Positions 1 to 15,602 of a stretch of DNA of 16,383 nucleotides are shown here, one piece after another. The notes beneath the pieces are model-generated. The model worked only from the letters and a program-made list of their open reading frames with translations, had not been told where the DNA came from and did not search any database. Source of the DNA: a virus (lineage: Duplodnaviria > Heunggongvirae > Uroviricota > Caudoviricetes). The DNA is taken from the IMG/VR virus record IMGVR_UViG_2630968533_000009. One strand, 5' to 3'. Position numbers and translations under genes: made by a program. Numbering within the stretch: the stretch's first letter is position 1; every line of letters starts with the position of its first letter.

Positions 1-348
1 TTACGAATTACTGCGGCGCTGTTGCTTTTCCGCATGTACGCGTTTCACAATCTTATAAATCCATTGCAGCGTCAGATTATATTTCTTCGCTAATTCGGCG
101 TAGTTGCGCCCATCGCACTCGCTATAGATTTGGTAGTCACGCTCCGATGCTCGTCCGGAGATCCCCTTAGGGAAATAGATGCTTTGTCCGCCCCAGTTAC
201 GCATCATTCGGTCGGCAATGGCAAAACCCACATTTTCTGCCGATGAACTGTCGAGATTGATGCTTTCAATCAGAACTTGCGATGCATGAAAAGCCAGGTC
301 GTTAATGATCTCCGGTGTCCGGGCCATCTCTTTTGATTTTCGTATCAT
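1..348 (-). CDS. Mor/C-family transcriptional activator (phage Mu middle/late activator-like)
   Basis: Complete 115-aa ORF: ATG at 348 with GGAG 7 nt upstream, TAA at 1..3. C-terminal segment (GGQSIYFPKG ... NYAELAKKYNLTLQWIYKIVKR) matches the helix-turn-helix region I recall for Mu Mor/C-type activators. Divergent from the lysis/tail genes. Confidence 0.8.
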   Translation of the reverse strand: MIRKSKEMARTPEIINDLAFHASQVLIESINLDSSSAENVGFAIADRMMRNWGGQSIYFPKGISGRASERDYQIYSECDGRNYAELAKKYNLTLQWIYKIVKRVHAEKQQRRSNS

Positions 349-569
349 TTTTCATCTCCATATATCTTGCATCCTGAATAAGACCCGATGCGTGTAAAAC
401 CACGGATATACGCTAAGCAGTTGTCATTACTGCTACTCAATACATTCAATAAACAAATAAACAATCACCAAAAATATAAACTTTTAATATTAATGAACGT
501 CATAAATTCACGAAATAAATATATTGTTTGGATTATGTTTCTTATCAACAGGAGTATCATTTTACACTA

Positions 570-589
570 TACTGTATACATATACAGTA
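570..589. promoter_or_regulatory. LexA (SOS) box, TACTGTATACATATACAGTA
   Basis: Read directly: CTGT-N8-ACAG with an AT-rich spacer, 19/20 match to the E. coli LexA consensus TACTGTATATATATACAGTA. Lies in the AT-rich region between the activator gene and the lysis operon. Confidence 0.8.
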
Positions 590-829
590 TTATTTTTACC
601 TGTAGAGTAAAAAGATCGTTTCCCTCACAGTCGCTGACTTTCTTAAACAAACTTTAAAAATCAAATAACTATCGACTATTCCTACGATCCACCATCATCT
701 TTCCCCTGCATAATGACGCGCTTATTAGCCTGGTCACCTTTTGCTCTTTAATTGCTGAGTCGATTTATTAGCGGGCTTGTTCATTTATAGAGAATCTATT
801 TTTTAAACTTATTTATTAAAGCTTTTTTC

Positions 830-838
830 ATTCTTCAC
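830..838 (+). promoter_or_regulatory. Candidate late-promoter/activator element ATTCTTCAC, copy 1, 48 nt upstream of the 886 start
   Basis: Same 9-mer, preceded by TTAAAG/TTAAAAG, recurs at 2181..2189 upstream of the tail operon. A chance match is possible (roughly 1 in 10 for regions of this size). Confidence 0.25.
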
Positions 839-885
839 TGGCGGGTTCTGACGACACTAAACGCTCACTTATCAGGAGATATCGT

Positions 886-1173
886 ATGAAAAAAGTCACT
901 TTTCCCCGGCTTTCCGGCTGGCTAGTCGCTTCCGCCGCGCTGTTTGTCGTGATCGGCTGGACCTCTTCCGCACAGATCCCGGTCGTCATTTATAAACTAA
1001 GCCTGGTTTCGCTTTCCGCGGTGCTGGGATACTGGCTCGATCGCAGTTTGTTCCCCTGGGCACGGCCTGACTCTTTTAGCCCCTGGAAGGAACCTCGTTG
1101 CTGCGCGGCGGCAATGATTCGCCGCGCCATCATCGTTGCCGCCGTCTGTCTTTCCGTCGCCTTAGGGCTATAG
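886..1173 (+). CDS. Small membrane protein, putative holin
   Basis: 95 aa with AGGAG 8 nt upstream. Three hydrophobic helix-length segments (WLVASAALFVVIGW, LSLVSLSAVLGYWL, IIVAAVCLSVALGL). Sits immediately upstream of the lysozyme gene. Confidence 0.45.
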   Translation: MKKVTFPRLSGWLVASAALFVVIGWTSSAQIPVVIYKLSLVSLSAVLGYWLDRSLFPWARPDSFSPWKEPRCCAAAMIRRAIIVAAVCLSVALGL

Positions 1174-1175
1174 TG

Positions 1176-1781
1176 ATGTGGCTGAAATATATCGCGTCTA
1201 TGATTATTTTCGTTCTTTTCCCGCTTAACGCCTCTGAACCGCCGCGAGCCTCTCTGGCATGGCGAAACGAACTAATTCGTACAGCTCGAGAAGTCTGGGG
1301 GCTGAATGCTCCAGTGGCCGACTTTGCCGGGCAATTACACCAGGAGTCCGCCTGGCAGCCAATGGTACGTTCCCCCGTTGGCGCACAAGGTATGGCGCAA
1401 TTTATGCCTGCTACAGCGACATGGATAAGCCAGTTGTATCCACAATTGCGTGAAAACAAACCGTATAACCCAACCTGGGCGATTCGCGCGCTGGTGCAAT
1501 ATGACCAGCATTTGTGGAAAAACATCTCTGCGAAAAATGATTGTCAGCGTATGGCGTTTACCCTAAGCGCCTATAACGGCGGTCAGGGGTGGGTTAACCG
1601 GGATAAAAAACTGGCTGCATCCAAAGGGTTAGATGCCACTAGCTGGTTTGGTCATGTTGAGCAAGTCAACGCCGGGCGCAGCGCCACGAACTGGCGAGAA
1701 AATCGTCGCTATCCAAAGATGATCCTCTATCAACATGCCGCCCGCTATTTACTCTGGGGACAGGCAAGCTGTCTTCATTAA
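1176..1781 (+). CDS. Lytic transglycosylase (SLT-domain) endolysin with N-terminal signal or signal-anchor segment
   Basis: Motifs QESAW (catalytic Glu-Ser), GMAQFMP and AYNGGQG match the SLT family signature. N-terminal MWLKYIASMIIFVLFPLNA is hydrophobic. Start set at ATG 1176 just after the holin stop (1171..1173) rather than the track's 1098, which would overlap the holin. Confidence 0.85.
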   Translation: MWLKYIASMIIFVLFPLNASEPPRASLAWRNELIRTAREVWGLNAPVADFAGQLHQESAWQPMVRSPVGAQGMAQFMPATATWISQLYPQLRENKPYNPTWAIRALVQYDQHLWKNISAKNDCQRMAFTLSAYNGGQGWVNRDKKLAASKGLDATSWFGHVEQVNAGRSATNWRENRRYPKMILYQHAARYLLWGQASCLH

Positions 1782-1793
1782 TCAGAGGGGCCG

Positions 1794-2108
1794 ATGAAAC
1801 TCAGTATCGATTTTTGGGAAGTGATCTCCCTTATGCTTTCCTTCGTTGGATTAATGTTTGCTGCCGGAAAACTGCTGTTAGCACAAATTGAAAAACGACT
1901 TAATGAGCGTTTTGAGTCTCTGGAAAATGCCCGCAGGGAATCAGAAACAAGTTGGTCGAAACTGGAAAGAGAATTTCTCGAATTTCGTGCCGAGCTTCCG
2001 CTGCATTATGTCCGCAGAGAAGATTATCTTCGTGGGCAAGCAGTATTAGAAGCGAAGCTGGATGCCTTATATAGCAAAATCGAGCTGTTACAACGTGGCA
2101 GTTATTGA
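1794..2108 (+). CDS. Membrane-anchored coiled-coil protein, lysis accessory (possible i-spanin-like)
   Basis: 104 aa with GAGGGG RBS. One N-terminal transmembrane segment (ISLMLSFVGLMFAAGKLLL) followed by a charged helical region. Last gene of the lysis cassette; no partner lipoprotein ORF found. Confidence 0.35.
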   Translation: MKLSIDFWEVISLMLSFVGLMFAAGKLLLAQIEKRLNERFESLENARRESETSWSKLEREFLEFRAELPLHYVRREDYLRGQAVLEAKLDALYSKIELLQRGSY

Positions 2109-2110
2109 AA

Positions 2111-2145
2111 AATCCCCACCCTTATGTAAGGGTGGGGATTTTTTT
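2111..2145 (+). terminator. Rho-independent terminator after the lysis cassette
   Basis: Perfect 14-bp stem AATCCCCACCCTTA / TAAGGGTGGGGATT with a 3-nt loop, followed by seven T residues (2139..2145), directly after the 2108 stop. Confidence 0.8.
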
Positions 2146-2180
2146 AACCATTCAATTTTTTCTCTAAATCACATTAAAAG

Positions 2181-2189
2181 ATTCTTCAC
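2181..2189 (+). promoter_or_regulatory. Candidate late-promoter/activator element ATTCTTCAC, copy 2, 64 nt upstream of the 2253 start
   Basis: Identical 9-mer to 830..838 with the same AAAG-type upstream context, located between the terminator and the first tail gene. Confidence 0.25.
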
Positions 2190-2252
2190 CTTCGCTGCTT
2201 CAGAATACATTTCAACGATAACGAAGTGAGCGGTAATTAAGGTACAGCCTAT

Positions 2253-2708
2253 ATGGAAATTTTATCTGTAATGAATTCTGTTGTGACCAGATTACGTGAA
2301 CACAACTCCGAAATGGATATATTTATTTCATCTAAGGATGCCCAGAAATATATTCCACAGACACAACGAGTTGCAGTGATTATTAATTATAGCGGTTCTG
2401 TCTTTGCTACGCCCGAAAGCAGTAATGCCATCGTGCAACAGCAAATACTCCGCTTAACCGCCACCGTTATTGTTGGCAAAAATTGTGATGCATTAAACGC
2501 ACTTGATCACATACGCAGCGCATTGGGTGGCCTTCCGCTTCCTGATTGTGATCGTCTGCTTTGGCTTGAAAAAGAAATTAATACGGGTGAGAGCGGCGGT
2601 TTCTGCCGCTACATCCTGGAAATGGCGACCAGCTCGCTGTTTATCGCTGAACAGGAAAGCACGGATCTTCCCCTGCTTACGGAAGTTAACTACGAGGAAA
2701 CTGAATGA
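2253..2708 (+). CDS. Phage tail protein, Mu gp37-like (tail completion/terminator candidate)
   Basis: 151-aa ORF, first gene of the tail operon, stop overlaps the next start (ATGA). Assignment rests mainly on position two genes upstream of the sheath, as in Mu-like tails. Confidence 0.4.
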   Translation: MEILSVMNSVVTRLREHNSEMDIFISSKDAQKYIPQTQRVAVIINYSGSVFATPESSNAIVQQQILRLTATVIVGKNCDALNALDHIRSALGGLPLPDCDRLLWLEKEINTGESGGFCRYILEMATSSLFIAEQESTDLPLLTEVNYEETE

Positions 2709-2902
2709 AATACATCTACAACGGCCCAGCAAGCGGCGTCACCCTTGCCGATGGACAAGAAATCTTATTGTGGCCGAACAGTGAAATTGATCTGCCAGAA
2801 GACAACGAGTGGGTCATGACCATGATTGCCCGCAATCATCTGACTCCTGTCATCACTCAGGAAGAACAAAATAACGTAGAGGAAATTGTACATGGCAGCT
2901 AA
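2705..2902 (+). CDS. Small tail-associated protein preceding the sheath (DUF2635-like)
   Basis: 65-aa ORF translationally coupled on both sides. A small conserved gene in this position is typical of Mu-like tail clusters. Confidence 0.4.
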   Translation: MKYIYNGPASGVTLADGQEILLWPNSEIDLPEDNEWVMTMIARNHLTPVITQEEQNNVEEIVHGS

Positions 2903-4316
2903 TTATCTGCACGGTGTAGAAACTATTGAAATTGAAACCGGCCCGCGTCCGGTTAAAGCGGTAAAATCCGCCGTCATCGCTTTAATCGGTACATCCCCCT
3001 GCGGTCCGGTAAATAAACCAACATTATGCCTTTCTGAAAGCGATGCTGCGCAGTTTGGCTCGACTCAGGCTAACTTTACGATCCCACAGGCACTGAAGGC
3101 AATTTATGACCACGGTGCCGGTACGGTGGTGGTGATTAACGTGCTGGATCCGGCAAAACATGGCTCCAACATCAGCAATGAGAGTATCACTTTTGATGCT
3201 AACAACCAGGCGAAGCTCGCTCACCGCAATGTGCGTAACGTGGTACTAAAGCCCTCTTCATCAAATTCATCAACCTTTAACACCGCAGCATTTAGCGTAG
3301 ATGAACAAACAGGCATAATTACCCGTAAAGGAGCCGACATTCCTCCTGGTGCGAAAGTTTGTGCCTATTATTCCTGGTGCGACCCTACAAAGGTCACCGC
3401 AGCCGATATTATCGGTACCGTAAATACCGCAGGCGACCGCACGGGGATGAAACTCCTTCAGGACACCTATAACCTGTACGGTTTCTACGCCAAAATCCTG
3501 CTTGCTCCTGTGTTTTGTACGCAAAAATCGGTGACTACTGAGCTGATTGCACAAGCGGAAAAACTCGGTGCGATTACCTACATTGATGCCCCGATTGGGA
3601 CAACATTCCAGCAGGTATTGGCTGGACGCGGTTCGCAAGGGGCTATCAACTTCAATACCAGCTCTGATCGTGCGCGTTTATGTTACCCACATGTCAAAGT
3701 TTACGATGGCATCACTAACCAGGAAATTCTTGAGCCTCTCTCTTCGCGTGCTGCCGGGCTGCGTGCCAAAGTAGACCTCGAAAAAGGTTTCTGGTGGAGC
3801 AACTCAAACCAGGAAATTCAGGGTATTACCGGTATTGAACGTTCGCTTTCCGCAATGATTGATGATCCACAAAGCGAAGTGAATCAGCTCAACGAAAACG
3901 GCATTACCACTATTTTCAATAGTTACGGCTCTGGTCTGCGCTTGTGGGGTAACCGCACAGCGGCATGGCCTACCGTGACCCATATGCGTAACTTTGAAAA
4001 CGTCCGCCGGACAGGCGATGTAATCAATGAGTCAATCCGTTATTTCAGTCAGCAGTATATTGATATGCCGATTAATCAGGCACTTATTGACGCGCTGACC
4101 GAATCGGTAAATACCTGGGGCCGAAAACTGATTGCCGACGGCGCACTGCTTGGCTTTGAGTGCTGGTACGATCCGGCACGAAATTCACCGGCTGAACTCA
4201 GCGCCGGGCATTTATTGCTGAGCTATAAATTCACCCCGCCACCGCCGCTGGAACGTCTGACGTTTGAAACTGAAATTACTTCTGAATATTTAGTCTCTCT
4301 GGAGAGCAATAGCTAA
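2892..4316 (+). CDS. Contractile tail sheath protein
   Basis: About 474 aa. N-terminus MAANYLHGVETIEIETGPRP resembles the P2 FI / Mu L sheath N-terminus. ATG 2892 with GAGGAA RBS preferred over the track's TTG at 2886. Confidence 0.9.
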   Translation: MAANYLHGVETIEIETGPRPVKAVKSAVIALIGTSPCGPVNKPTLCLSESDAAQFGSTQANFTIPQALKAIYDHGAGTVVVINVLDPAKHGSNISNESITFDANNQAKLAHRNVRNVVLKPSSSNSSTFNTAAFSVDEQTGIITRKGADIPPGAKVCAYYSWCDPTKVTAADIIGTVNTAGDRTGMKLLQDTYNLYGFYAKILLAPVFCTQKSVTTELIAQAEKLGAITYIDAPIGTTFQQVLAGRGSQGAINFNTSSDRARLCYPHVKVYDGITNQEILEPLSSRAAGLRAKVDLEKGFWWSNSNQEIQGITGIERSLSAMIDDPQSEVNQLNENGITTIFNSYGSGLRLWGNRTAAWPTVTHMRNFENVRRTGDVINESIRYFSQQYIDMPINQALIDALTESVNTWGRKLIADGALLGFECWYDPARNSPAELSAGHLLLSYKFTPPPPLERLTFETEITSEYLVSLESNS

Positions 4317-4840
4317 TGGCTGGAAAAATTCAAATTAACCGTATTACCAACGCCAATATTTATCTCGATGGTAATAACCTTTTAGGTCGTGCAACAGAAA
4401 TTAAATTGCCGGATGTAAGTTTAATTATGCAGGAGCATAAAGCACTGGGCATGGTGGGTAAAATCGAACTCCCGGCAGGTTTCGATAAACTGGAGGGCGA
4501 AATTAAATGGAACTCCTTCTATCAGGACGTAATGCGTAAAACGGCAAACCCGTGGCAGGCGGTTGCATTACAGTGCCGCTCCAGTATTGATTGCTATAAC
4601 TCCCAGGGGAAAGCGAATCAATTAGCGCTAGTGACACATTTAACCGTGATGTTTAAAAAGAATCCACTGGGCACATTTAAACAGAATGAAAACCCGGAAT
4701 TCAGCAGCGCCTTTGGTTGCACTTATATTAAACAAGTAGTTGATGGTGAAACGCTGCTTGAACTTGATTATATGGCCAATATTTTCCGGGTTAATGGTGT
4801 GGATCAATTAAGTACCTATCGCAATAACATCGGTGGCTAA
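4316..4840 (+). CDS. Tail tube protein
   Basis: 174-aa ORF immediately after the sheath, start overlapping the sheath stop (TAATG). Size and position match P2 FII / Mu M-type tube proteins. Confidence 0.8.
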   Translation: MAGKIQINRITNANIYLDGNNLLGRATEIKLPDVSLIMQEHKALGMVGKIELPAGFDKLEGEIKWNSFYQDVMRKTANPWQAVALQCRSSIDCYNSQGKANQLALVTHLTVMFKKNPLGTFKQNENPEFSSAFGCTYIKQVVDGETLLELDYMANIFRVNGVDQLSTYRNNIGG

Positions 4841-4844
4841 GTTA

Positions 4845-4864
4845 TTCGGGGCTACGGCCCCGAA
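4845..4864 (+). other. RNA hairpin after the tube gene (8-bp GC-rich stem, 4-nt loop)
   Basis: TTCGGGGC-tacg-GCCCCGAA is a perfect inverted repeat 5 nt after the tube stop, with no long T tract. Likely an mRNA-stabilising or partial-termination element. Confidence 0.5.
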
Positions 4865-4890
4865 CTTTGCAAAATAAATAAGGACACAAA

Positions 4891-5208
4891 ATGAAAGAAC
4901 ATTATATCTTGCAGTTTCCATTTACGTCGGCAGCAGGAAATAATATCGACACGCTGCAATTACGTCGCCTGAAAGTAAAAGATATGCGCAACGCCCGCCG
5001 GATCAGCGAAAAGCCAGAAGAGTGGGATGAACCGCTGATGGCGGCGATGACCGGACTGGTGCCAGAAGATTTAGCCGAAATGGATTTGCTGGATTACCAG
5101 GCATTGCAGAAACGATTTCAATCCATGCTTACCGTGGTTACAGAATCCTCCCCTGCTATGGCAGGCAATGGCGCTACTGGCGAGATGGTTTCGCTTTCCG
5201 CCCAGTGA
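4891..5208 (+). CDS. Tail assembly chaperone (gpE/gpG-like)
   Basis: 105-aa acidic ORF between tube and tape measure, the conserved chaperone position. AAGGA RBS. Confidence 0.5.
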   Translation: MKEHYILQFPFTSAAGNNIDTLQLRRLKVKDMRNARRISEKPEEWDEPLMAAMTGLVPEDLAEMDLLDYQALQKRFQSMLTVVTESSPAMAGNGATGEMVSLSAQ

Positions 5209-5282
5209 GATAGACGCCCTTACCGTCGATGACTTTAGCAACTGGCTGGATGAAGCCAGCGCCCAAATAAAAATCGAATATG

Positions 5283-5307
5283 ACTCGCAGACCTGATGTC
5301 TGCGAGT
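5283..5307 (+). other. Hairpin in the chaperone-tape measure spacer (10-bp stem, 5-nt loop)
   Basis: ACTCGCAGAC-ctgat-GTCTGCGAGT is a perfect inverted repeat. It covers the stop of the +1-frame extension of the chaperone. Confidence 0.5.
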
Positions 5308-5397
5308 TTCCCAAGCCCGTCAGGTTTATTTCTTCCCTGCCCCTTTTTTTAGAAAAATAACCAGCGGGCCATTATCAATATTTAAAGAGAAACAATT

Positions 5398-7773
5398 TTG
5401 GCCAACGATATTATTACCCAGCTTCAGGCGCGTAATGAGACGTTGACGCAGGCAATAGCCCGTTACGGCTCACTCAACGCCAGAACATTGTTAACTCTCT
5501 CTACTCAGCAGGCGACAGTTATCAAACTAACGCAGCAGCTTGCCGATTCCGCTCTCCGCCTGGAGGAAAATAGCCGCAGCCGCGCTAATCTGATGGAGAA
5601 AACCCAAACATTTGCCGGGCAATTTAGCAAAGTATTCAATGTTGAAGCCCCCGACTGGAAGTTGCCGTATGAGTTTCAGGACAACATGGTCAATATGGCG
5701 ACCAAAGGTGGGATGAATGCTACAACCCGCGAGACGCTCAGCCTTAATCTGCGCGACTGGAGCATGGATTTTAACCAGCAGCAGACCACCTTACAGAACG
5801 CAGCCCAAACGCTGATCGAAGGCAATTTGTCGTCGATGCAGGATCTCAACCGTTATATGCCGGAGATCGCCAAAGCTGCCACCGCCACGCGCGAAAGTGC
5901 TGAAACGTGGGCGAATGCCGCGCTCGCGACTCATGATCGACTGAATATTGCCCCGGAAAATTTCCACGCCGCGCAAAACATGATGTACGGCATTAGCAAA
6001 AGCGGTGGGCCTGCCATTGCTGAACAAACGCAGTGGATAGAGAAATTTGCAGGTAAAACCGGCGCTCAGGGTCTGGAAGGTATGGCTGAACTGACTGCCG
6101 CCATGCAGATCGCAATGAAAAATGGGGCCAGCGCCAGTGCGGCGGCGGAGAATTTTGACCACTTTCTGCAAACCACCTTTTCGAAAAAAACCGATAGCTG
6201 GTTCGCCAGCCAGGGCGTCGATCTGCAAGGCTCTCTGCTTGAACATCAGCAAAACGGTATGGGTGTTAGCGAAGCCATGACTCATATCGTACAAATGCAG
6301 CTTGAGAAGATGAACCCGGCGATCCTCGACACCTTCAAACGTACTATGCAGATTGAAGATTTATCTGCTCGCAGCAATGCGCTGCAATCGATGGTGTCGC
6401 AATTTAATCTGGGCGAAATGTTCGGCGATGTGCAAACGGTGGAATTCCTGGCACCTATGCTGGCGAATATGGAGGAATATCGCCAGTTAAAAGCCTCTGC
6501 CATGCAAGCCACCAGCAAGAATCTGATTAACGCTGACTTTTCTGCGCAAATGGCCTCGCCCATTGAACAGACTAAAGCGTTACAGCTGGCATTAAATGAT
6601 TTATGGCTCAGCATTGGTTTGCAGCTTATGCCGGCGATTGGCGAGCTGGCACAAAGCCTTACGACGGTTATTCGCCAGTTCAGCGCCTGGCTACGCGAAC
6701 ATCCGGCGCTGGTGCAAAACATTGCGAAAATCGTCGGGGCGGTTTGGCTGTTTAACGGCGCGCTGAATGTTTTAAAGCTGGGCGCGAACCTCATCACCTC
6801 GCCGTTTATTCGTCTGGTCGATATCTTCCTGAAAGTCAAGGCAAGTCTGGCGCTCACAGGCGGGGCAAGTAAGATGCTATCAGCGGTTAAGTCATTGGGT
6901 GGCGGCGCAAAATGGCTAATGCAACTGCTTGGTCGTGGCCTGATTGGCGCACTGAAACAGGTAGGTCAGACCGTCTTCTGGTTGGGTAGGGTTTTATTGA
7001 TGAATCCCATTGGTCTGGTCATCACTGCGATTGCGGGCGCTGCTTATCTGATTTGTCGCAACTGGGAGCCTATCTCCAGGTTCTTTTCGACCATCTGGCA
7101 ACGTATCACCACGGCCTTTGACGGCGGCATTGCAGGAATTTGTCGGTTGATTCTCGACTGGTCACCGCTGGAGTTGTTCTATAGCGCCTTTTCCAGTGTG
7201 ATGAATTGGTTTGGTGTCGAGATGCCTGCAAGTTTTAGCGAGTTCGGCAGCAATCTTCTGGGCAGTCTGGTTGACGGCATAATGAATGCCTTCCCCGCTC
7301 TGAAAGGCATTATTGATCAGGTAAAAAACGCCATCCCAGACTGGCTAAAAACCACGATGGGTATTAGTACAGAAGGATCGGCTACAGCTATTACAAGCAC
7401 GACTAATACCGCATCCGTCTCCCCCGCGACCGTTGTTCCAGGCGTTGCCGGTGCGATTTTAACACCGCCGGTGGGCAAACAACTCGCGCCATCCGGCAAA
7501 ACGGCTACGCCGTCATCGGCGCCAGCGGCAAAAAATACAGCCGCCAAACCCGTATCTGCCTCTTTACCTGGTAAATCCGTAACCAAACCGGCGACGCTAC
7601 CCTCCCGTTCCTCAGGAAAAGTCCAGGTAAATTTTTCGCCACAAATTACCGTGCAGGGTAACGGACAAAACACCACTAAAGAGATTCAGAACGTGTTGAC
7701 GATGAGTAAACGCGAACTGGAAAGAATGATTAACGATGTAATGGCGCAGCAGCAGCGCCGGGGGTATGCCTGA
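5398..7773 (+). CDS. Tail tape measure protein
   Basis: 791 aa: helical N-terminal region, long central hydrophobic/Gly-rich section, Ser/Thr/Pro/Ala-rich C-terminal segment. Start appears to be TTG at 5398 (no in-frame ATG before an upstream TAA), so the start is less certain than the call. Confidence 0.85.
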   Translation: MANDIITQLQARNETLTQAIARYGSLNARTLLTLSTQQATVIKLTQQLADSALRLEENSRSRANLMEKTQTFAGQFSKVFNVEAPDWKLPYEFQDNMVNMATKGGMNATTRETLSLNLRDWSMDFNQQQTTLQNAAQTLIEGNLSSMQDLNRYMPEIAKAATATRESAETWANAALATHDRLNIAPENFHAAQNMMYGISKSGGPAIAEQTQWIEKFAGKTGAQGLEGMAELTAAMQIAMKNGASASAAAENFDHFLQTTFSKKTDSWFASQGVDLQGSLLEHQQNGMGVSEAMTHIVQMQLEKMNPAILDTFKRTMQIEDLSARSNALQSMVSQFNLGEMFGDVQTVEFLAPMLANMEEYRQLKASAMQATSKNLINADFSAQMASPIEQTKALQLALNDLWLSIGLQLMPAIGELAQSLTTVIRQFSAWLREHPALVQNIAKIVGAVWLFNGALNVLKLGANLITSPFIRLVDIFLKVKASLALTGGASKMLSAVKSLGGGAKWLMQLLGRGLIGALKQVGQTVFWLGRVLLMNPIGLVITAIAGAAYLICRNWEPISRFFSTIWQRITTAFDGGIAGICRLILDWSPLELFYSAFSSVMNWFGVEMPASFSEFGSNLLGSLVDGIMNAFPALKGIIDQVKNAIPDWLKTTMGISTEGSATAITSTTNTASVSPATVVPGVAGAILTPPVGKQLAPSGKTATPSSAPAAKNTAAKPVSASLPGKSVTKPATLPSRSSGKVQVNFSPQITVQGNGQNTTKEIQNVLTMSKRELERMINDVMAQQQRRGYA

Positions 7774-8726
7774 TGTATGCCGTTTTAGGAGAGATTGAAT
7801 TTAAGGTTGTCACATTCTGGGACGGCTTTAAAAGCACAATGGGCGTGGATTACGCCACACATGCCCGTATAGAAGGCAAACCCGGCGTGCAGTTTATTGG
7901 CGATAAGCTGGATATGCTGGCGCTGGAATTTTCCCTGCACAGCCAGTTTTGCCAGCCCACAACAGAGCTGAACCGACTGCGTGAAGCCATGCTTGCTCAC
8001 AAGGCGATGGCACTGGTATTTGGCAATGGCGATTATCGCGGCTGGTTTGTGATTACGGAGCTAACCGCCACCCACCAGCACACCGATCCCTGGGGCAATG
8101 TGATTGCCCAAAACGGAACGATGTCGCTCCAGGAGTACACCGGCGATCCTAAAAATCCACTTTTACCTCCGGCGATTACCACCCAGGAGCCCAACATCGA
8201 GGAAAAGGCGAGCGATTTTCCCGACAAGGTGGAGTCCTGGTTTGATCAGATATTAAACGCCATCGAAGAAGGTATGCGTAAGGCCAAAGAGATGCTGGAT
8301 GAACTGACACAAGCCATTGAAGATATTAAAAAAACGGTGGCAAAAGTGAAAGCAATGATTAAAGAGGCCAAAGCGTTAAAAGAAAAGTGTGAAAAGATAA
8401 TTACGTCATTGAAAAAGACAATCGACGCCATCGAAACCCTGTTTAAACAGCCAATGGATCTGCAAACGCTGGCAGGACTCCCAAAAGCGTTGTCGGCGCA
8501 GATTAAAACTTTACTGGGTAACATGCCAGGTATCCGGGACTGCGCCAATGACGCCAGTACACTGGTTGACCATGCTCAGGCGCTTTTCGACGACATTACC
8601 AGCGACATCGCCGAAGCGACGTTTGATAAAGCCGCAACGTTGGTTGATCAGGCACGAACAACGGTACAACAAACCACTCCCACAGTGAGCCAGCTTGCTG
8701 CCGCGACCATTACGAGGATCTGGTGA
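7773..8726 (+). CDS. gpU-like tail protein with a long C-terminal coiled-coil extension
   Basis: N-terminal ~130 aa (MYAVLGEIEFKV ... DY ... FIG ... LALEF ... GWFVITE) follows the pattern I recall for P2 gpU. The C-terminal ~185 aa are Lys/Glu/Ala-rich and heptad-like. Start overlaps the tape measure stop (ATGA). Confidence 0.6.
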   Translation: MYAVLGEIEFKVVTFWDGFKSTMGVDYATHARIEGKPGVQFIGDKLDMLALEFSLHSQFCQPTTELNRLREAMLAHKAMALVFGNGDYRGWFVITELTATHQHTDPWGNVIAQNGTMSLQEYTGDPKNPLLPPAITTQEPNIEEKASDFPDKVESWFDQILNAIEEGMRKAKEMLDELTQAIEDIKKTVAKVKAMIKEAKALKEKCEKIITSLKKTIDAIETLFKQPMDLQTLAGLPKALSAQIKTLLGNMPGIRDCANDASTLVDHAQALFDDITSDIAEATFDKAATLVDQARTTVQQTTPTVSQLAAATITRIW

Positions 8727-8935
8727 TGCGATACCTTGAACATATCACCACCGACGGCGAACGCTGGGATAATCTGGCATGGCATTACTACGGTGATGCG
8801 CTGGCTTATGAACGCATAATCGCCGCCAATCCACATGTAGCCATTTACCCGGTACTGCCTTCCGGTATTCAGCTCATTATTCCGGTCATTTCCGTCAATA
8901 AAACCTTATCGGAGATCCCACCATGGCTGAGATAA
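8726..8935 (+). CDS. Tail protein X (gpX-like)
   Basis: About 70 aa with GD/ER-WD ... YYGD ... ANP ... LPSG pattern resembling P2 gpX. ATG 8726 overlaps the upstream TGA; GTG 8723 is an alternative start. Confidence 0.7.
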   Translation: MRYLEHITTDGERWDNLAWHYYGDALAYERIIAANPHVAIYPVLPSGIQLIIPVISVNKTLSEIPPWLR

Positions 8936-9963
8936 GCGTAACTGGTGGCGTCTTTGCCACACTCACGCCCATTTTTACCCTCTGGTATGGGCATAAAGAT
9001 ATCACTTATGACATCACACCCTATGTCACCAGCATCAGTTACCACGACAGCATCAAAAACGAGTCGGATACCATCGCAATTACACTGGATGACACAGATG
9101 GACGCTGGATAAAAGAGTGGTATCCCGGCAAAGGCGATACGCTGGCGCTGCATATGGGTTATCAGGGAGAGAAGCTGCTCGATTGTGGTCAGTATATTAT
9201 TGATAAAATTGATATTTCAGCGCCACCTTCTACGGTAAATATTGATGGCATCGCCACTTCCGTCAATCAGGCGCTGCGCACCCGTAACAGCCAGGGTTTT
9301 GAAGAAACGACGCTTTCGGCTATCGCCAGCCGTATCGCACAAACTCACGGCCTAAAGCTGGTGGGCAAAATCGAGCCTCTGACAATTGACCGGGTGACAC
9401 AGTACGGCGAAACCGATGTTGGATTTCTCAAACGTCTGGCCAGTGAATATGGTTATGCCGTAAAAGTGACGACGAAAGAGCTGATTTTTTCACATTTACC
9501 CACGCTGCGCTGCCTGGCACCTGTGAAAAAGATCGACCGCAAAGACGTTTCGCATTTCACCTTCAAAGATACCATTAACCGTATCTACAAAAACGCCACC
9601 GTACAGCATCAAAATAGTAAGAAAAAAGAACTGGTTATCTACACTCACAACAGCCAGCAAAAACCGTCTGCCCGTGGAGTCGGCACCAGTGCCGACACGC
9701 TAAAACTGAACAGTCGGGCGACGGACGTTGGCGCAGCACAGGCAAAAGCCAACGCTGCACTCGACAGCCACAACGAATATCAGCAAACCGGAACGCTCAC
9801 AATGATGGGCTGCCCGGAACTGACGGCGGGCAATAAAATCGAGCTAACCGATTTTGGCGTGCTTTCCGGTCAATGGCTAATTGATAAATCGACTCACAGT
9901 TTTGTGCGCAGCGGCTATACCACTGAAATCGACGTGTCGCGCGGGCCAGCGACCAGCCAGTAA
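8923..9963 (+). CDS. gpD-like tail/baseplate hub protein
   Basis: 346 aa with DDTDG, TTLSAIASRIAQTHGLKL and ETDVGFLKRLA motifs matching the P2 gpD / Mu P family as I recall it. Confidence 0.85.
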   Translation: MAEISVTGGVFATLTPIFTLWYGHKDITYDITPYVTSISYHDSIKNESDTIAITLDDTDGRWIKEWYPGKGDTLALHMGYQGEKLLDCGQYIIDKIDISAPPSTVNIDGIATSVNQALRTRNSQGFEETTLSAIASRIAQTHGLKLVGKIEPLTIDRVTQYGETDVGFLKRLASEYGYAVKVTTKELIFSHLPTLRCLAPVKKIDRKDVSHFTFKDTINRIYKNATVQHQNSKKKELVIYTHNSQQKPSARGVGTSADTLKLNSRATDVGAAQAKANAALDSHNEYQQTGTLTMMGCPELTAGNKIELTDFGVLSGQWLIDKSTHSFVRSGYTTEIDVSRGPATSQ

Positions 9964-9972
9964 GGAGGAAAT

Positions 9973-10674
9973 ATGAAAGGAGTAACCCGTCAAACGGGGA
10001 TTATCAGCGATATTGACGAAACCAGCGTTCGGGTGCGGGTCACGCTCCCGGAGTGTGACAATCTGAAGAGCAACTGGCTTGCGGTACTTCAACGCAATTC
10101 CCAGGACAATAAAGACTACTGGCTACCGGATATGGGCGAGCAAGTGGAAGTTCTGCTGGACAATAACGGTGAAGATGGCGTGGTGCTGGGCGCAGTTTAT
10201 TCTACGGTTGACACCGCGCCTGTAGCCTCGCGCGACAAACGTTACGTCCAGTTTTCTGATGGCGCAGCGTTTGAATATGACCGCAGCACGCACCAGCTGA
10301 CGATCAACGGCGGTATCGAGAAAATCGTGATTGAGGTTATCAACGGTACCTGCCTGACATCGCCCAACGTTGAGATTAAAGCCCAACAGGTCACCGTGAC
10401 TTCCGATACCGTCGATGTTAAAGCGACCGATGTCAGCATCGACGCCACTAAGGTCGAGGTTAAAGCAGCAGCAGTGACGGTAGATGCGCCCATGAGCACC
10501 TTTACTGGCAACGTCACGGTAATGAAAAAACTCACCTGGCTTGGCGGGATGGCAGGAAGTGGAGGCATCGGTAACGCAGCCACGATAACCGGCAATGTCA
10601 ACGTGATCGGCAACGTTCAGGCCAGCGGCGCATTGCAGGACAGCGGTGGCAACTCCAACCACCATTCACACTGA
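9973..10674 (+). CDS. Baseplate central spike (gpV-like)
   Basis: 233 aa with a strong RBS (AAGGAGG). N-terminal domain followed by a Val/Thr/Ala-rich beta-helix-like repeat region and a His-rich C-terminus (NHHSH). Confidence 0.8.
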   Translation: MKGVTRQTGIISDIDETSVRVRVTLPECDNLKSNWLAVLQRNSQDNKDYWLPDMGEQVEVLLDNNGEDGVVLGAVYSTVDTAPVASRDKRYVQFSDGAAFEYDRSTHQLTINGGIEKIVIEVINGTCLTSPNVEIKAQQVTVTSDTVDVKATDVSIDATKVEVKAAAVTVDAPMSTFTGNVTVMKKLTWLGGMAGSGGIGNAATITGNVNVIGNVQASGALQDSGGNSNHHSH

Positions 10675-10679
10675 CGTTT

Positions 10680-10708
10680 AACCCGCCTGATGGCGGGTTT
10701 TCTCTTTT
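10680..10708 (+). terminator. Terminator-like hairpin between gpV and gpW genes
   Basis: AACCCGCC-tgat-GGCGGGTT (8-bp stem) followed by T-rich TTCTCTTTTT, inside the 98-nt gap between the two genes. Confidence 0.5.
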
Positions 10709-10772
10709 TAATCAATCAGTTTTCTAAATCGCTTTAATATCTCCACAGCCCGTTCAGGGCGAAAATACCCTC

Positions 10773-11132
10773 ATGAACACAAAAACACGCCCCTCAACGC
10801 TGCACTGGCAACCGGCCTTGCTGCGGCCTGAAGAATACGTCTGCGGACTGGATGATATTCACCAGGCAATACACATCATTCTGCGTACACCGCGCGGCAG
10901 TGATCCCCACAGACCGCTGTTTGGCAGCAACTTGTGGCACTACATCGATTACCCCATCGAGCGGGCTATCCCGCATGTGGTACGGGAGTCGGTGGAAGCC
11001 ATCCGCCAGTGGGAACCGCGCTGTCGGTTGCTGAAGGTGACACCAGTAATCGACGGCGAACATCTGACGTTACGTGTGCAATGGCGCGCCGCTGACGGCG
11101 TTATCAACTCAACGGAGGTGTTATGGCGATAG
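10773..11132 (+). CDS. Baseplate wedge protein (gpW/gp25-like)
   Basis: 119 aa with IHIILRTPRGS ... FGSNL ... WEPR pattern matching the gpW/gp25 family. Confidence 0.8.
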   Translation: MNTKTRPSTLHWQPALLRPEEYVCGLDDIHQAIHIILRTPRGSDPHRPLFGSNLWHYIDYPIERAIPHVVRESVEAIRQWEPRCRLLKVTPVIDGEHLTLRVQWRAADGVINSTEVLWR

Positions 11133-12100
11133 CCGAACCCAATTTTATTGACCGCGATCCTGCGCAAATTACCAGTGAGATGATTGCGCAATACGAAGAT
11201 GCCAGTGGTAAAAAACTCTATCCGGCACAGGCTGAGCGGTTGCTCATCGACCTGTTTGCCTATCGTGAAAACCTTGTACGCATCGCCATTCAGGAAGCGG
11301 CGAAACAAAACCTGGTCGCGTATTCCCGCGCGCCAATGCTGGATTATTTAGGAGAGCTGGTGGGCGTTCACCGTTTGCCTGCGCAGCCAGCAAAAACGAC
11401 GTTGCAGTTTTCGGTCGTCAGTGCGTATACCAGCAATATCCTGATTCCCCAGGGGACGCGGGCCAGTGCCTCTGATAGCGTGATGTTCGCCACCGATGAA
11501 GATGTTCTGCTTCCGGCCTGGAGTTTGCATATCGCCGTTCCTGCCACCAGCCTCGCAGCAGGTGAACAGGGTAACGGCTGGCAGCCTGCACAAATTAGCG
11601 CTCTGGTCGACAGGATTGGTCATTATGACATCAACGTAACCAACCTGACTGCGTCAACGGGCGGCTGCGGTGAAGAGAGCGATGACGCATTGCGCCAGCG
11701 TATCCAACTGGCACCAGAAAGCTTTAGTAATGCGGGCAGCTATGGCGCATACCGCTTTCATACGCTTTCTGTTAGCCAGTCGATTATTGACGTTGCAGTA
11801 CTGGGGCCGGACGAGGGATTGCCAGAAGGCTGCGTGGAGATCTACCCGCTAACGCTGTTTACCACCGCCGATCAGGAGACAACGCTGGCTGCGGCGCGTA
11901 AAGCGATTAGCCTCTGGACGCAACAGCGGCAGAAACATCTGGGGCAAGACATTGTGCCAAACCAGATAATCAAAGTGTTACAGGTCGATGGCGTCTATGA
12001 CGTTGCGCTGAACTTGCCTACAAAACGTATTTTGCAGGCGCATGAATGGGCGGAATGCACTGCAATAGACGTCACGATCGCCGGAGTTAGCGATGGATAA
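11123..12100 (+). CDS. Baseplate J-like protein
   Basis: 325 aa immediately after the gpW-like gene with overlapping start. Size and order match P2 gpJ / Mu baseplate J. Confidence 0.85.
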   Translation: MAIAEPNFIDRDPAQITSEMIAQYEDASGKKLYPAQAERLLIDLFAYRENLVRIAIQEAAKQNLVAYSRAPMLDYLGELVGVHRLPAQPAKTTLQFSVVSAYTSNILIPQGTRASASDSVMFATDEDVLLPAWSLHIAVPATSLAAGEQGNGWQPAQISALVDRIGHYDINVTNLTASTGGCGEESDDALRQRIQLAPESFSNAGSYGAYRFHTLSVSQSIIDVAVLGPDEGLPEGCVEIYPLTLFTTADQETTLAAARKAISLWTQQRQKHLGQDIVPNQIIKVLQVDGVYDVALNLPTKRILQAHEWAECTAIDVTIAGVSDG

Positions 12101-12809
12101 ATTGCTACCACCGCCGCCGCTTGCCAGCGATGAGCGTTTTTCGATTCTGGCAAATATCGCCGCCGAGCGTTTTGCCCAACTCGATCTGACGGCGTTGATG
12201 GTTTATCTGGTCGACCTGGTTGATGCTTCGGCATTACCAGCCCTTGCAGAACAATTTCACGTTCAGGGGTTGGAAGGTTGGTTATTTACCACCGATGAGC
12301 GGGAGAAACGCGAGTTAATTAAACAAGCCATTGAACTGCATAAATATAAAGGAACAATTTGGGCGGTGCGGCGGGTGCTGGAAATACTCTCCTTACCCGG
12401 AACTATTTCAGAATGGTTTGAATATGGGGGAAGGGCTTACTTTTTTAAGGTTGATATTACACTAGAGGAAAAAGGATTAAATGAAGATGAATTCAATGCA
12501 CTTATCACATTAATTCATGAATATAAAAATGTCCGTTCAAAGCTGGAAAGCATTGTTATTTGGCTTATTAATCGAAGCCCAATACCAGTTATTGGCAGTG
12601 CCATGCAAGGAGGGGAAGTCATTACAGTATTGCCTCCTGTTGCAGAAAGCCTCAGCCAGTCATCTGGAATATTTTTAGCGACAGGTTATTGTGTGGAGGA
12701 ATATATTCAACTACTACCTTATCAACCCGATCGACTAACACAATCCCAACCGATGAAGGTCGGCACAGGATACTGGAGCACCGAAATTATGTCTGTATAT
12801 CCGGAGTAA
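12093..12809 (+). CDS. gpI-like baseplate protein with extended low-GC C-terminal region
   Basis: N-terminus [16 protein letters not shown] is typical of the P2 gpI family. At 238 aa it is longer than P2 gpI, and the C-terminal part (about 12420..12720) is visibly AT-rich. Confidence 0.7.
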
Positions 12810-12812
12810 TAA

Positions 12813-14422
12813 TGGCAAGTGAATTTTTTACAATATTAACTGCTGCAGGCAAAGCCAAAATTGCCTCAGCACTGGCCGAGCAAAAACAGATCCGTCTGCA
12901 AACTATGGTAGTTGGCGACGGTAATGGTAAATATATCGAACCGACAGAAAGTCAGACCAAAGTAGTCCATGAGGTCTGGCGTGGTCAGCTCAATACATTA
13001 AAAATTGCGCCAGATAATCCGGCCTGGGTTATCGCAGAAGCGATTATTCCCGAACAAGTCGGAGGCTGGTATGTACGCGAAGTTGGGTTACTGGATACCG
13101 ACGGCACGATGGTCGCTATTGGTAAATTCCCGGAAACCTATAAGCCACGATTACCTGCGGGGGCCAGTAAGCAAATCGTTATACGCGCGGTCATGGAAGT
13201 CACCAATGCAGATGCGGTGACGCTTTTGATCGACCCTTCAGTCGTTGTGGCAACCAGGGAATATGTCGATGACGCGTTGAAAACACATCAGCAATCACGA
13301 AATCATCCTGATGCGACGCTGACACAAAAAGGTTTTACGCAGCTGAGTAATGCGACTAATAGCGATGATGAAACCAAAGCGGCCACGCCAAAAGCGGTAA
13401 AAACGGCATATGACCTGGCAAATAGCAAAGCTGCCACCAGTCATAATCATGCCTGGAATCAGATTACTGGTATCCCTGATGGTACACTGACGCAGAAAGG
13501 AGTCGTTAAGCTTAACAATACAACAAATAGCACCAGTACGACGGAAGCTGCAACACCAAGTGCGGTTAAGGCAGCGATGGATAAGGCTATTGCTGCGGCA
13601 CCGTCCAGCCATACCCATGCCTGGGGGCAAATAACAGGTATCCCCGACGGTACGCTGACGCAAAAAGGGGTCGTGAAACTTAATAATGCGACCAACAGCA
13701 CCAGTACGACGGAAGCTGCAACGCCGAACGCTGTTAAGGCAGCGATGGATAAGGCTATTGCTGCGGAAAGCTGTCCTGTTGGGATGCCTATTCCCTGGCC
13801 ATCTGATTCTGTACCTTCAGGCTACGCTCTGATGACAGGTCAGACATTTAATAAAACCTCCTATCCCAAACTGGCAATTGCATATCCATCTGGTGTTATT
13901 CCTGATATGCGCGGATGGATAATTAAAGGAAAACCATCCAGTGGGCGCGCTATATTATCTACTGAACTGGATGGAGTTAAATCACATAACCATACGGGCA
14001 GTATTTCGAGTACGGACTTAGGGACGAAATCTGTATCATCAATAGATCTAGGAACAAAGAACACTCAGTCATTTAATCATGGGATAAAAACAACAAATAC
14101 AGCAGGCGCGCATAGCCATGATAGTGGTTCTGGCGAAAGTAGTGAGGGGGGAAAACCTCGGTATGGTACTCGTGATAACACAACAAATAATTTTGGTTCT
14201 GGTGAATCAGATCATGACAATTACAAATTTAACACATCCACGGATGGAGAGCATGCACATTCAGTTAATGTTGGCTCACACTCTCACTCTGTTATTTTAG
14301 GGTCACATAATCATTCAATTGCCCTTGGTTCCCATAATCACTCCCTAACCATTAATAATACCGGCAACACCGAAAACACCGTCAAAAATATCGCATTCAA
14401 CTATATTGTGAGGCTAGCATGA
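12813..14422 (+). CDS. Tail fiber protein
   Basis: Conserved Mu S / P2 H-type N-terminal domain, three internal fiber repeats, collar-like segment ([11 protein letters not shown] ... [12 protein letters not shown]) and HxH-rich tip. Start set at ATG 12813 after the gpI stop; the track's 12689 start is an upstream in-frame extension. Confidence 0.85.
13306..13766 (+). repeat. Tandem tail-fiber repeats (about 56 aa / 168 nt period, three copies)
   Basis: Copies 2 and 3 (13469..13598 and 13637..13766) are near-identical in nucleotide sequence, differing mostly at synonymous positions. Copy 1 (from about 13306) is more diverged. Protein motif TLTQKG-x-LNNxTNS ... EAATP-x-AVK-x-A-x-D. Confidence 0.7.
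14264..14344 (+). repeat. Three tandem 27-nt repeats encoding x-x-x-G-S-H-x-H-S
   Basis: GTTAATGTTGGCTCACACTCTCACTCT / GTTATTTTAGGGTCACATAATCATTCA / ATTGCCCTTGGTTCCCATAATCACTCC, in frame within the fiber C-terminus. Confidence 0.7.
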
Positions 14423-15578: not shown

Positions 15579-15583
15579 ATCAC

Positions 15584-15602
15584 GCCGGGCTTTATGCCCG
15601 GC
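15584..15602. terminator. GC-rich hairpin between convergent genes (possible bidirectional terminator)
   Basis: GCCGGGC-tttat-GCCCGGC, 7-bp all-GC stem, 6 nt after the 15578 stop and overlapping the stop of the minus-strand gene. Confidence 0.5.

What the first reader, a model, noticed from the sequence alone, without database searches (positions are those of the whole stretch)
7773..8726. gpU-like protein carries a C-terminal coiled-coil extension of about 185 residues
The N-terminal third follows the gpU pattern, but the protein is roughly twice the length of P2 gpU (about 160 aa as I recall). The extra region is strongly Lys/Glu/Ala-rich with heptad-like periodicity. This could be an added domain at the tube-baseplate junction or a fusion with a second tail protein; I do not recall such an architecture being characterised.
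Basis: partly seen in the sequence, partly recalled or inferred. Interest (0 to 1): 0.45.

Follow-up and report, generated by a model that had tools for sequence, protein, structure and literature searches.

The report
Long gpU tube initiator, helical-bundle tail
This is an ordinary phage-tail "tube initiator": a gpU-type domain with a helical-bundle domain added at its C-terminal end, an arrangement that is standard for BcepMu-like tail clusters and already seen in solved Mu-type baseplates.

Summary
The ORF at 7773..8726 (317 aa) is real. Residues 6-123 match Pfam Phage_P2_GpU, and residues ~136-317 are an all-helical extension.

The architecture is not unusual:
- One PHROG profile (phrog_788, "tail protein") covers the whole protein (E 8e-131).
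- BcepMu gp45, phiE255 gp19, Klebsiella KP12_258 and over 100 enterobacterial homologue clusters are 288-327 aa, always in the order tape measure – U – X(LysM) – D(hub).
- Of the 150 nearest cluster representatives, 73 are 260-330 aa.

AlphaFold models the extension confidently as an antiparallel helical bundle, not a long coiled coil. The best viral fold match, over the whole length, is a Mu N-type "DNA circulation" protein (E 2.7e-5). Cryo-EM papers show that Mu gp43 and Milano gp25 (tube – helical – LysM) and pyocin PA0626 ("ripcord") use such a helical domain to lock the wedges around the hub.

The likely role is therefore tube initiator / baseplate centerpiece, with the LysM part split off as gpX.

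Two modest points of interest:
- The domain order is reversed relative to the pyocin ripcord.
- The extension is by far the fastest-evolving part of the baseplate module.

Interest is low.

The parts
7773..8726 (+). Long gpU-family gene (317 aa): tube initiator / baseplate centerpiece
   Evidence: ORF. RefSeq WP_022646413.1. phrog_788 covers aa 1-316, E 7.6e-131. Present full length and single copy in 194 of 5426 complete E. coli genomes.
7773..8177 (+). aa 1-135: gpU (tube-like) domain plus the conserved linker GDPKNPLxPPAI
   Evidence: PF06995 at aa 6-123, E 6e-34. 50-67% identical to BcepMu and KP12. 47 invariant columns lie in aa 1-134 of A1. Foldseek matches tube-initiator-type chains 6u5b_g, 7b5h_AK, 6j0n_b and 9g8s_S at prob 0.97-0.99, all with weak E-values of 0.06-0.21.
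8178..8723 (+). aa 136-317: helical-bundle extension (about 6 helices)
8208..8462 (+). aa 146-230: Lys/Glu/Ala/Ile-rich amphipathic helical hairpin; local GC dip to 0.42-0.44
   Evidence: Composition and 3.5-residue periodicity. GC profile. This composition is specific to the 317-aa E. coli / Salmonella / Enterobacter clade.
8682..8720 (+). aa 304-316: the only conserved motif of the extension, SPxLSxLAAxIxTR (S306, A310, R315)
   Evidence: Alignments A1 and A4. It lies directly before the gpX start.
8726..8935 (+). gpX (69 aa as annotated from ATG 8726; 70 aa from the GTG at 8723), LysM-type 'glue' / BW4 protein, translationally coupled to U
   Evidence: PF05489 Phage_tail_X, E 1.7e-23. TGATG overlap. 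Rare in-frame U+X fusions P0079, P0083 and P0101 exist. Orthologue of pyocin PA0627 and T4 gp53 according to PMC10811340.
8923..9963 (+). gpD-type baseplate hub (346 aa)
   Evidence: PF05954, E 1.9e-11. phrog_52, E 1e-132.
5398..7773 (+). Tape measure protein (791 aa), immediately upstream and overlapping the U start
   Evidence: PF10145. RefSeq annotation. 24-28% identity to KP12 and BcepMu, so it is the other fast-evolving protein of the module.
9973..12809 (+). Spike gpV, sheath initiator gpW and wedge proteins gpJ and gpI. gpJ and gpI are the presumed binding partners of the helical domain.
   Evidence: PF04717, PF04965 and PF04865. RefSeq names. The partner role is inferred from Mu, Milano and the pyocin.

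Best explanation
The gene encodes the tube initiator (baseplate centerpiece) of a BcepMu-like contractile tail.

Shown here:
- Residues 1-135 are a gpU-family domain.
- The gene sits between the tape measure gene and the gpX (LysM) and gpD (hub) genes.
- Residues 136-317 form a confidently predicted intramolecular helical bundle.
- This architecture is the norm in its family.

Inferred from solved Mu, Milano, P2 and R2-pyocin baseplates:
- Six copies of the gpU domain form a tube-like ring on the trimeric gpD hub and seed tube polymerisation.
- The flexible Pro-rich linker lets the six helical bundles hang down and outward into the grooves between neighbouring gpJ/gpI wedges. Together with gpX they fill the hub-wedge gap and lock the extended, pre-firing baseplate.
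- When the fibres trigger the wedges to splay, the protein leaves the baseplate with the moving tube.

Functionally, U plus X (317 + 69 aa) corresponds to the single-chain tube – helical – LysM proteins Mu gp43 and Milano gp25 (398 aa for Milano).
For: - PF06995 matches aa 6-123, and phrog_788 matches full length.
- The synteny tape measure – U(long) – X – D – V – W – J – I holds in the window, E. coli CFSAN061771, phiE255, BcepMu, KP12, Komp_PAO1_1 and three genomic or metagenomic loci.
- 73 of the 150 nearest 50%-identity cluster representatives are 260-330 aa, and the gpU domain starts at residue 1-6 in most of them, including every one of the 73 long proteins.
- The top BFVD Foldseek hit is a 407-aa 'DNA circulation, N-terminal' (Mu N-type) protein: E 2.7e-5, prob 0.99, 314 aligned columns. 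Further whole-length hits are 'LysM domain' phage proteins of 424-560 aa.
- PDB Foldseek aligns 319 columns to a 398-aa chain of the phage 7-7-1 baseplate (E 0.018). That is the same length as Milano gp25, 'Baseplate Centerpiece'.
- Literature: P2 gpU is a hexameric tube initiator on gpD. Mu gp43 is a tube-like domain plus a helix-rich domain embedded between wedges. Milano gp25 and pyocin PA0626 have helical domains with a wedge-joining 'glue' role and are extruded on contraction.
- TGATG coupling to gpX and natural U+X fusions were found.
Against: - No solved structure of a member of this subfamily was found.
- No significant sequence or profile similarity links the extension to Mu gp43 or to the pyocin ripcord helical domain.
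- A four-helix bundle is a generic fold, so fold matches cannot prove common origin. TM-scores of the whole-length matches are low (0.17-0.20) because the two domains are oriented differently.
- The placement between wedges is by analogy only. No complex was modelled.
- The extension is far less conserved than its supposed partners gpJ, gpI, gpD and gpX, which is unexpected for a tight interface.
Confidence: 0.75

Rival explanations
1. The helical domain, alone or in addition to a structural role, acts after ejection like Mu N. It would travel with the tube tip into the target cell and bind and protect the ends of the injected linear DNA of BcepMu-like transposable phages. In this headless E. 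coli element that role would be vestigial.
For: The gene occupies the position of Mu N (gp43) between tape measure and hub. The family is rooted in BcepMu-like phages, and the island keeps a Mor activator. The best viral fold match is a 'DNA circulation' protein. Mu gp43 is described as both tube initiator and DNA circularisation protein.
Against: There is no PF07157 match and no profile similarity to Mu gp43. The extension is retained full length in all 194 E. coli copies of a cluster without head genes, which argues for a DNA-independent role. It is not established which part of Mu gp43 binds DNA.
Confidence: 0.1
2. The extension is an intermolecular coiled coil that runs inside or along the tube together with the tape measure protein, for example as a tape-measure anchor or length-determination partner.
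For: aa 146-230 show strong 3.5-residue periodicity. Several tape-measure PHROGs give sub-threshold matches. The gene is adjacent and translationally coupled to the tape measure gene. The tape measure protein and this extension are the two fastest-diverging parts of the module.
Against: AF2 gives a confident intramolecular antiparallel bundle in two divergent clades. In all solved analogues the helical domain lies outside the tube. The tape-measure PHROG hits are weak (E about 1e-3) and typical of compositional similarity. U length does not track tape measure length: 317/791, 305/895, 305/821, 299/632, 294/821 and 296/846 aa.
Confidence: 0.07
3. It is a recent fusion of gpU with an unrelated protein, such as a chemoreceptor-like or membrane-active helical protein. 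NCBI names such as 'chemotaxis protein' and 'methyl-accepting chemotaxis protein' suggest this.
Against: No MCP Pfam family appears among the matches listed at E ≤ 0.01, and all helical matches that are listed are below their cut-offs. The top PDB profile hits are de novo designed coiled coils, which points to composition or fold rather than homology. The architecture is ancient and syntenic across Burkholderia, Pseudomonas and Enterobacterales tails.
Confidence: 0.02

Closest known systems
BcepMu gp45 / phiE255 gp19 / PHROG phrog_788 'tail protein' (long gpU)
   Same: Full-length homology: 34% identity over 99% of the query to phiE255 gp19, and a whole-length phrog_788 match at E 7.6e-131. 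Same domain order, same size (294-317 aa), and same gene order tape measure – U – X – D – V – W – J – I.
   Different: The helical extension is almost unrecognisable at sequence level (22% identity, E 0.17). The Lys/Glu-rich composition and about 21 extra residues are specific to the E. coli / Salmonella / Enterobacter clade. This copy sits in a headless chromosomal cluster.
Mu gp43 (N, 'DNA circularization protein'; PDB 9ki1) and Milano gp25 / 7-7-1 baseplate centerpiece (PDB 8fqc, 9rku)
   Same: Same position after the tape measure gene and before the hub gene. Same order: tube-like domain, flexible linker, helical domain. Whole-length fold-level matches to a Mu N-type protein (BFVD, E 2.7e-5) and to a 398-aa 7-7-1 baseplate chain. 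U + X (317 + 69 aa) is about the size of the single-chain proteins (398-407 aa).
   Different: The N-domain belongs to a different Pfam family (PF06995, not PF07157). There is no profile similarity. The LysM module is a separate gene (gpX) rather than the C-terminal domain. About 6 predicted helices against 8. DNA circularisation is not known for this family.
R2 pyocin PA0626 'ripcord' (PDB 6u5b)
   Same: Same Pfam gpU domain, similar total size (289-290 aa), an extra domain of about 125-155 aa described as a helical bundle, and the same gene order tape measure – PA0626 – PA0627 (LysM) – PA0628 (hub). Its role is described as wedge-joining glue that leaves with the tube.
   Different: The domain order is reversed. 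PF06995 is at 158-284 of the 289-aa orthologue, with the extra domain N-terminal. Here gpU is at 6-123 and the extra domain is C-terminal. The helical domains show no significant similarity (hhalign E 0.023, prob 2%).
P2 gpU (159 aa)
   Same: Same Pfam family. Same role as tube initiator on gpD.
   Different: P2 gpU has only a single C-terminal helix, modelled to about residue 150, that touches the wedge. In P2, gpX is encoded elsewhere in the genome.

Membership tests
Pfam PF06995 Phage_P2_GpU (tube initiator) | HMM match above the gathering score | tested here: met
   116.7 bits against a cut-off of 27.5, aa 6-123 covering profile positions 1-119 of 120.
Pfam PF06995 Phage_P2_GpU (tube initiator) | Gene lies between the tape measure and gpD hub genes of a contractile tail cluster | tested here: met
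   Window gene order and RefSeq annotation.
Pfam PF06995 Phage_P2_GpU (tube initiator) | Forms a hexameric tube-like ring on the hub | not testable with these tools
   Only monomer prediction is available. The role is known from the P2 cryo-EM preprint.
Long gpU of BcepMu-like tails (phrog_788) | Full-length profile match, N-terminal gpU domain plus a C-terminal extension of about 160-190 aa | tested here: met
   phrog_788 positions 1-296 of 297 match aa 1-316, E 7.6e-131. Homologues of 288-327 aa cover 99% of the query. Conserved C-terminal motif.
Long gpU of BcepMu-like tails (phrog_788) | Followed by gpX (PF05489) and gpD (PF05954) | tested here: met
R2 pyocin ripcord (PA0626) | gpU domain plus an additional helical domain in one chain | tested here: met
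R2 pyocin ripcord (PA0626) | Domain order: helical domain N-terminal, gpU domain C-terminal | tested here: not met
   PF06995 is at 158-284 of 289 aa in the PA0626 orthologue, against 6-123 of 317 aa here.
R2 pyocin ripcord (PA0626) | Sequence homology of the helical domain | tested here: not met
   hhalign of A4 against A5 gives E 0.023, probability 2%. The single-sequence test gives E 0.046.
Mu N / gp43 family (PF07157 DNA_circ_N) | Pfam DNA_circ_N match | tested here: not met
   Absent from the window protein and present in Mu gp43. hhalign of A1 against Mu gp43 gives prob 0.6%.
Mu N / gp43 family (PF07157 DNA_circ_N) | Tube-like domain followed by a helix-rich domain (fold-level architecture) | tested here: met
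   The top BFVD hit 'DNA circulation, N-terminal' aligns over 314 columns, E 2.7e-5. AF2 model.
Mu N / gp43 family (PF07157 DNA_circ_N) | LysM module in the same chain | tested here: not met
   LysM-type gpX is a separate, overlapping downstream gene. It is fused only in the rare variants P0079, P0083 and P0101.
Mu N / gp43 family (PF07157 DNA_circ_N) | Binds and circularises injected DNA | not testable with these tools
   This needs biochemistry.
Canonical (parallel, intermolecular) coiled coil | Long uninterrupted heptad register that forms an intermolecular rod | tested here: inconclusive
   Periodicity is present in aa 148-231, but AF2 predicts helices of at most about 34 residues folded back into an intramolecular bundle. 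No oligomer modelling was possible.
Methyl-accepting chemotaxis protein (name given by some sources) | MCP signalling-domain Pfam match | tested here: not met
   No MCP family is listed in the Pfam scan at E ≤ 0.01. Only sub-threshold helical families match.

The most novel reading that the evidence does not exclude
In BcepMu-like transposable phages, the C-terminal helical domain of long gpU may be the functional counterpart of Mu N. It would be a baseplate 'glue' that, once expelled with the tube tip, also protects or circularises the ends of the injected DNA. A related evolutionary reading concerns gpU-family tube initiators in general. They may have gained wedge-locking helical domains independently at opposite ends: N-terminal in the R2 pyocin and C-terminal here. 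Either way, the extension is the fastest-diverging part of the baseplate module.
Probability: 0.15. Interest if true: 0.45.

Novelty: new member of a known kind. Interest (0 to 1): 0.15.

Why it matters
The finding matters little for discovery. It assigns a correct role (tube initiator / baseplate centerpiece with a wedge-locking helical domain) to a widespread protein that databases call only 'phage tail protein' or, wrongly, 'chemotaxis protein'.

For tailocin or phage-tail engineering, the U – X – D trio is the core that holds the baseplate in its primed state, so knowing the domain boundaries (linker at aa 124-135) is useful.

The reversed domain order relative to the pyocin ripcord, and the extreme divergence of the helical domain, are small evolutionary curiosities that a comparative structural study could use.

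Tried and rejected
- **Sequence searches of the PDB.** I searched with the protein, the family profile, an N-domain profile and two Pseudomonas phage homologues. Only coiled-coil noise or nothing came back. The link to the pyocin ripcord appeared only through P2 gpU.
- **hhalign against Mu gp43.** No similarity.
- **hhalign of the extension against the ripcord N-domain.** Tested with a single sequence and with a 10-sequence family profile. Neither was significant, so I dropped the idea of a circular permutation of one ancestral domain as undemonstrable.
- **AF2 model of the natural U+X fusion P0083.** This was meant to dock LysM on the bundle. Mean pLDDT was 54 and the X part was below 35, so the model was not used for fold search.
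- **'Short' 185-194-aa homologues as evidence that the extension is dispensable.** They are frameshifted reads or U-D deletion fusions.
- **Idea that a longer U compensates for a shorter gpD.** The U/D lengths are 317/346, 305/366, 305/384, 299/349, 294/389, 296/401 and 289/364 aa. The trend is not clean.
- **Papers not held.** The original R2 pyocin baseplate paper (PMC7513463) and the Mu baseplate assembly paper (PMC5018775) were unavailable. The ripcord mechanism is therefore cited second-hand.
- **Tandem repeats.** There is no meaningful tandem repeat in the gene.
Full report
**Observation**

The window carries a complete contractile-tail module on the + strand:
- sheath (2892..4316), tube (4316..4840), chaperone (4891..5208) and tape measure (5398..7773);
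- the gene in question (7773..8726);
- gpX (8726..8935), gpD hub (8923..9963), gpV spike, gpW, gpJ, gpI, fibre and fibre-assembly genes.

It encodes 317 aa and starts at an ATG that overlaps the tape-measure stop (TGATG). Its stop overlaps the gpX start in the same way. RefSeq annotates the identical gene as 'phage tail protein'.

Pfam Phage_P2_GpU matches aa 6-123 (E 6e-34). The remaining ~182 residues hit only sub-threshold helical families. P2 gpU is 159 aa.

The Lys/Glu/Ala-rich segment with strong 3.5-residue periodicity is aa 146-230. The last 87 residues are Ala/Thr/Leu/Asp/Gln-rich.

**Is the architecture unusual? No.**

- PHROG phrog_788 ('tail protein', 297 positions) covers aa 1-316 with E 7.6e-131.
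- tblastn against phage genomes finds full-length relatives in Burkholderia phages, for example phiE255 gp19 (296 aa). BcepMu gp45 (296 aa), Klebsiella KP12_258 (294 aa) and Escherichia phage PhiKM match over the N-terminal ~60%.
- The large protein database returns over 100 clusters of 288-327 aa with 99-100% coverage. They come from Salmonella, Enterobacter, Pectobacterium, Yersinia, Klebsiella, Erwinia, Xenorhabdus, Photorhabdus, Brenneria and Serratia.
- An exhaustive HMMER search with the N-domain alone finds 981 cluster representatives. Of the best 150, 73 are 260-330 aa and 40 are 150-199 aa. The gpU domain starts at residue 1-6 in most, including every one of the 73 long proteins; only six start beyond residue 20.
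- The apparent short close relatives (185-194 aa) are frameshifted reads or deletion fusions, not a real short form.
- In every locus examined the order is tape measure – U(long) – X – D – V – W – J – I.

**Anatomy of the extension**

Across the family, the N-domain and the Pro-rich linker GDPKNPLxPPAI are strongly conserved. The extension is nearly unalignable, except for a C-terminal motif SPxLSxLAAxIxTR (S306, A310, R315).

Between the window and KP12 or BcepMu:
- sheath, tube, X, D, V, W, J and I are 37-77% identical;
- the U N-domain is 67% (KP12) and 50% (BcepMu) identical;
- the U extension gives no BLAST hit to KP12 and 22% identity (E 0.17) to BcepMu;
- only the tape measure protein is comparably divergent, at 24-28%.

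The Lys/Glu-rich composition is peculiar to the 317-aa E. coli / Salmonella / Enterobacter clade and coincides with a local GC dip to 0.42.

**What it corresponds to**

- A recent P2 cryo-EM preprint places six gpU copies as the tube initiator on the trimeric gpD hub. [quoted passage not shown]
- The Mu virion structure shows gp43 (N) as a tube-like domain plus a helix-rich domain, which includes LysM, embedded between wedges.
- The Milano paper describes gp25 as Tube (1-127) – Helical (141-345) – LysM (346-396). It describes pyocin PA0626 as a tube domain plus a helical bundle. That bundle has a wedge-joining 'glue' function, is extruded with the tube on contraction, and has a linker that must stay intact.

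Tested here:
- The best match of the model in the viral structure library is a 407-aa 'DNA circulation, N-terminal' (Mu N-type) protein aligned over 314 columns (E 2.7e-5, prob 0.99). 'LysM domain' phage proteins of 424-560 aa follow.
- In the PDB, a 398-aa chain of the phage 7-7-1 baseplate aligns over 319 columns (E 0.018). Tube-initiator-type chains of the pyocin, PVC, Anabaena CIS and phiCD508 match the N-domain.
- Milano gp25 ('Baseplate Centerpiece') is also 398 aa.
- U + X (317 + 69 aa) is thus about the size of the single-chain centerpieces. Rare natural in-frame U+X fusions exist.

**A difference worth recording**

P2 gpU hits only one PDB sequence, 'Ripcord PA0626' (290 aa), and it aligns to residues 159-286.

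I fetched the orthologue from P. paraeruginosa (289 aa). It sits between the tape measure gene and the PA0627/PA0628 homologues. Pfam places PF06995 at residues 158-284.

So the pyocin's extra domain is N-terminal, whereas in the window family it is C-terminal. This also conflicts with the wording in the Milano paper.

Profile-profile comparison of the two helical domains is not significant (E 0.023, prob 2%). The only aligned stretch is the last helix of each. Homology is therefore undemonstrated. Independent acquisition and an ancient rearrangement both remain possible.

There is also no sequence-level similarity to Mu gp43.

**Most likely mechanism**

The following is inferred by analogy, not shown here:
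1. Six gpU domains form the first tube-like ring on the gpD trimer.
2. The flexible linker drops the six helical bundles into the grooves between gpJ/gpI wedges.
3. There, with gpX, they lock the primed baseplate.
4. On triggering, the wedges splay and the protein leaves with the tube.

I give this reading a confidence of 0.75.

Alternatives:
- a Mu N-like DNA-end function, which is plausible for the phage members but not needed in this headless cluster;
- a lumenal coiled coil paired with the tape measure protein, which the confident intramolecular bundle and all solved analogues argue against;
- a chemoreceptor fusion, which is rejected.

**Context and verdict**

The window is an E. coli chromosomal island between lysC and yjbD. 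It has a Mor activator, lysis genes and a full tail, but no head genes. It is present in 194 of 5426 complete genomes.

The finding is a correct observation of an ordinary feature. It is a new member of a known kind, with low interest. Two minor evolutionary notes remain: the domain order is reversed relative to the pyocin ripcord, and the helical domain diverges extremely fast.

Noticed in passing
window 1..16383 (= NZ_CP042896.1 about 4473726..4490246; L001): The whole window is a headless tail cluster in the E. coli chromosome between lysC and yjbD. It has a Mor-family activator, a holin, an SLT transglycosylase and a membrane protein, then sheath through tail fibre and fibre assembly. There are no capsid, portal, terminase or transposase genes. 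This is a tailocin-like element or a BcepMu-like prophage remnant, found in 194 of 5426 complete E. coli genomes. It may be the 's1-ST131' incomplete prophage of PMC9205054, but I did not verify this.
   Followed up: partly
window 11123..12100 (gpJ): This copy of baseplate protein J is 325 aa. It lacks 46 residues (NGLPGIELLAQ...RAQLTL) that are present in the otherwise identical 371-aa J of strain CFSAN061771 and in KP12 and BcepMu J. The loss is in frame, between 'LTL' repeats. 188 of the 194 genomes with the cluster carry the 138-bp segment, so this window holds a rare and possibly defective allele.
   Followed up: yes
L009:3527-4393 (PA0626 orthologue) and PDB 6u5b_h: In the R2 pyocin ripcord, the gpU Pfam domain is C-terminal (residues 158-284 of 289) and the extra domain is N-terminal. 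PMC10811340 describes the helical domain as fused to the C-terminus of the tube domain, which does not fit these coordinates.
   Followed up: yes
window 8150..8600: GC drops to 0.42-0.44, against 0.51-0.56 in the flanks, and AT skew rises to 0.33 over the Lys/Glu-rich part of the extension. This may reflect amino-acid composition or a recombinational replacement of this segment.
   Followed up: no
window 7771..7775 and 8724..8728; proteins P0079, P0083, P0101, P0021, P0116: Both the tape measure/U and U/X junctions are TGATG overlaps. Databases hold rare in-frame U+X fusions (364 aa), which recreate the Mu/Milano tube – helical – LysM chain. They also hold U-D deletion fusions (488 and 194 aa). 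Whether these are real or sequencing errors is unknown.
   Followed up: partly
homologues P0004, P0010, P0011, P0034; L004:5001-5885 (KP12_258): Several sources name members of this family 'chemotaxis protein' or 'methyl-accepting chemotaxis protein'. This looks like a mis-annotation driven by helical-bundle and compositional similarity.
   Followed up: yes
alignment A1, columns about 140-290 (P0028, P0039 against the window protein): The helical domain tolerates large in-frame indels. P0028 lacks 29 residues of the first helix region. P0039 has a 22-residue insertion made of repeated 'VLxPLExxLDxV'-like units.
   Followed up: no
window 9973..10674 (gpV) and 12093..12809 (gpI): The spike gpV (233 aa) aligns to KP12 V (170 aa) only over residues 1-142. 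gpI (238 aa) aligns to KP12 I only over residues 7-97. The C-terminal parts of the spike and of the fibre-docking protein are therefore swapped relative to close relatives, as expected for host-range modules.
   Followed up: no
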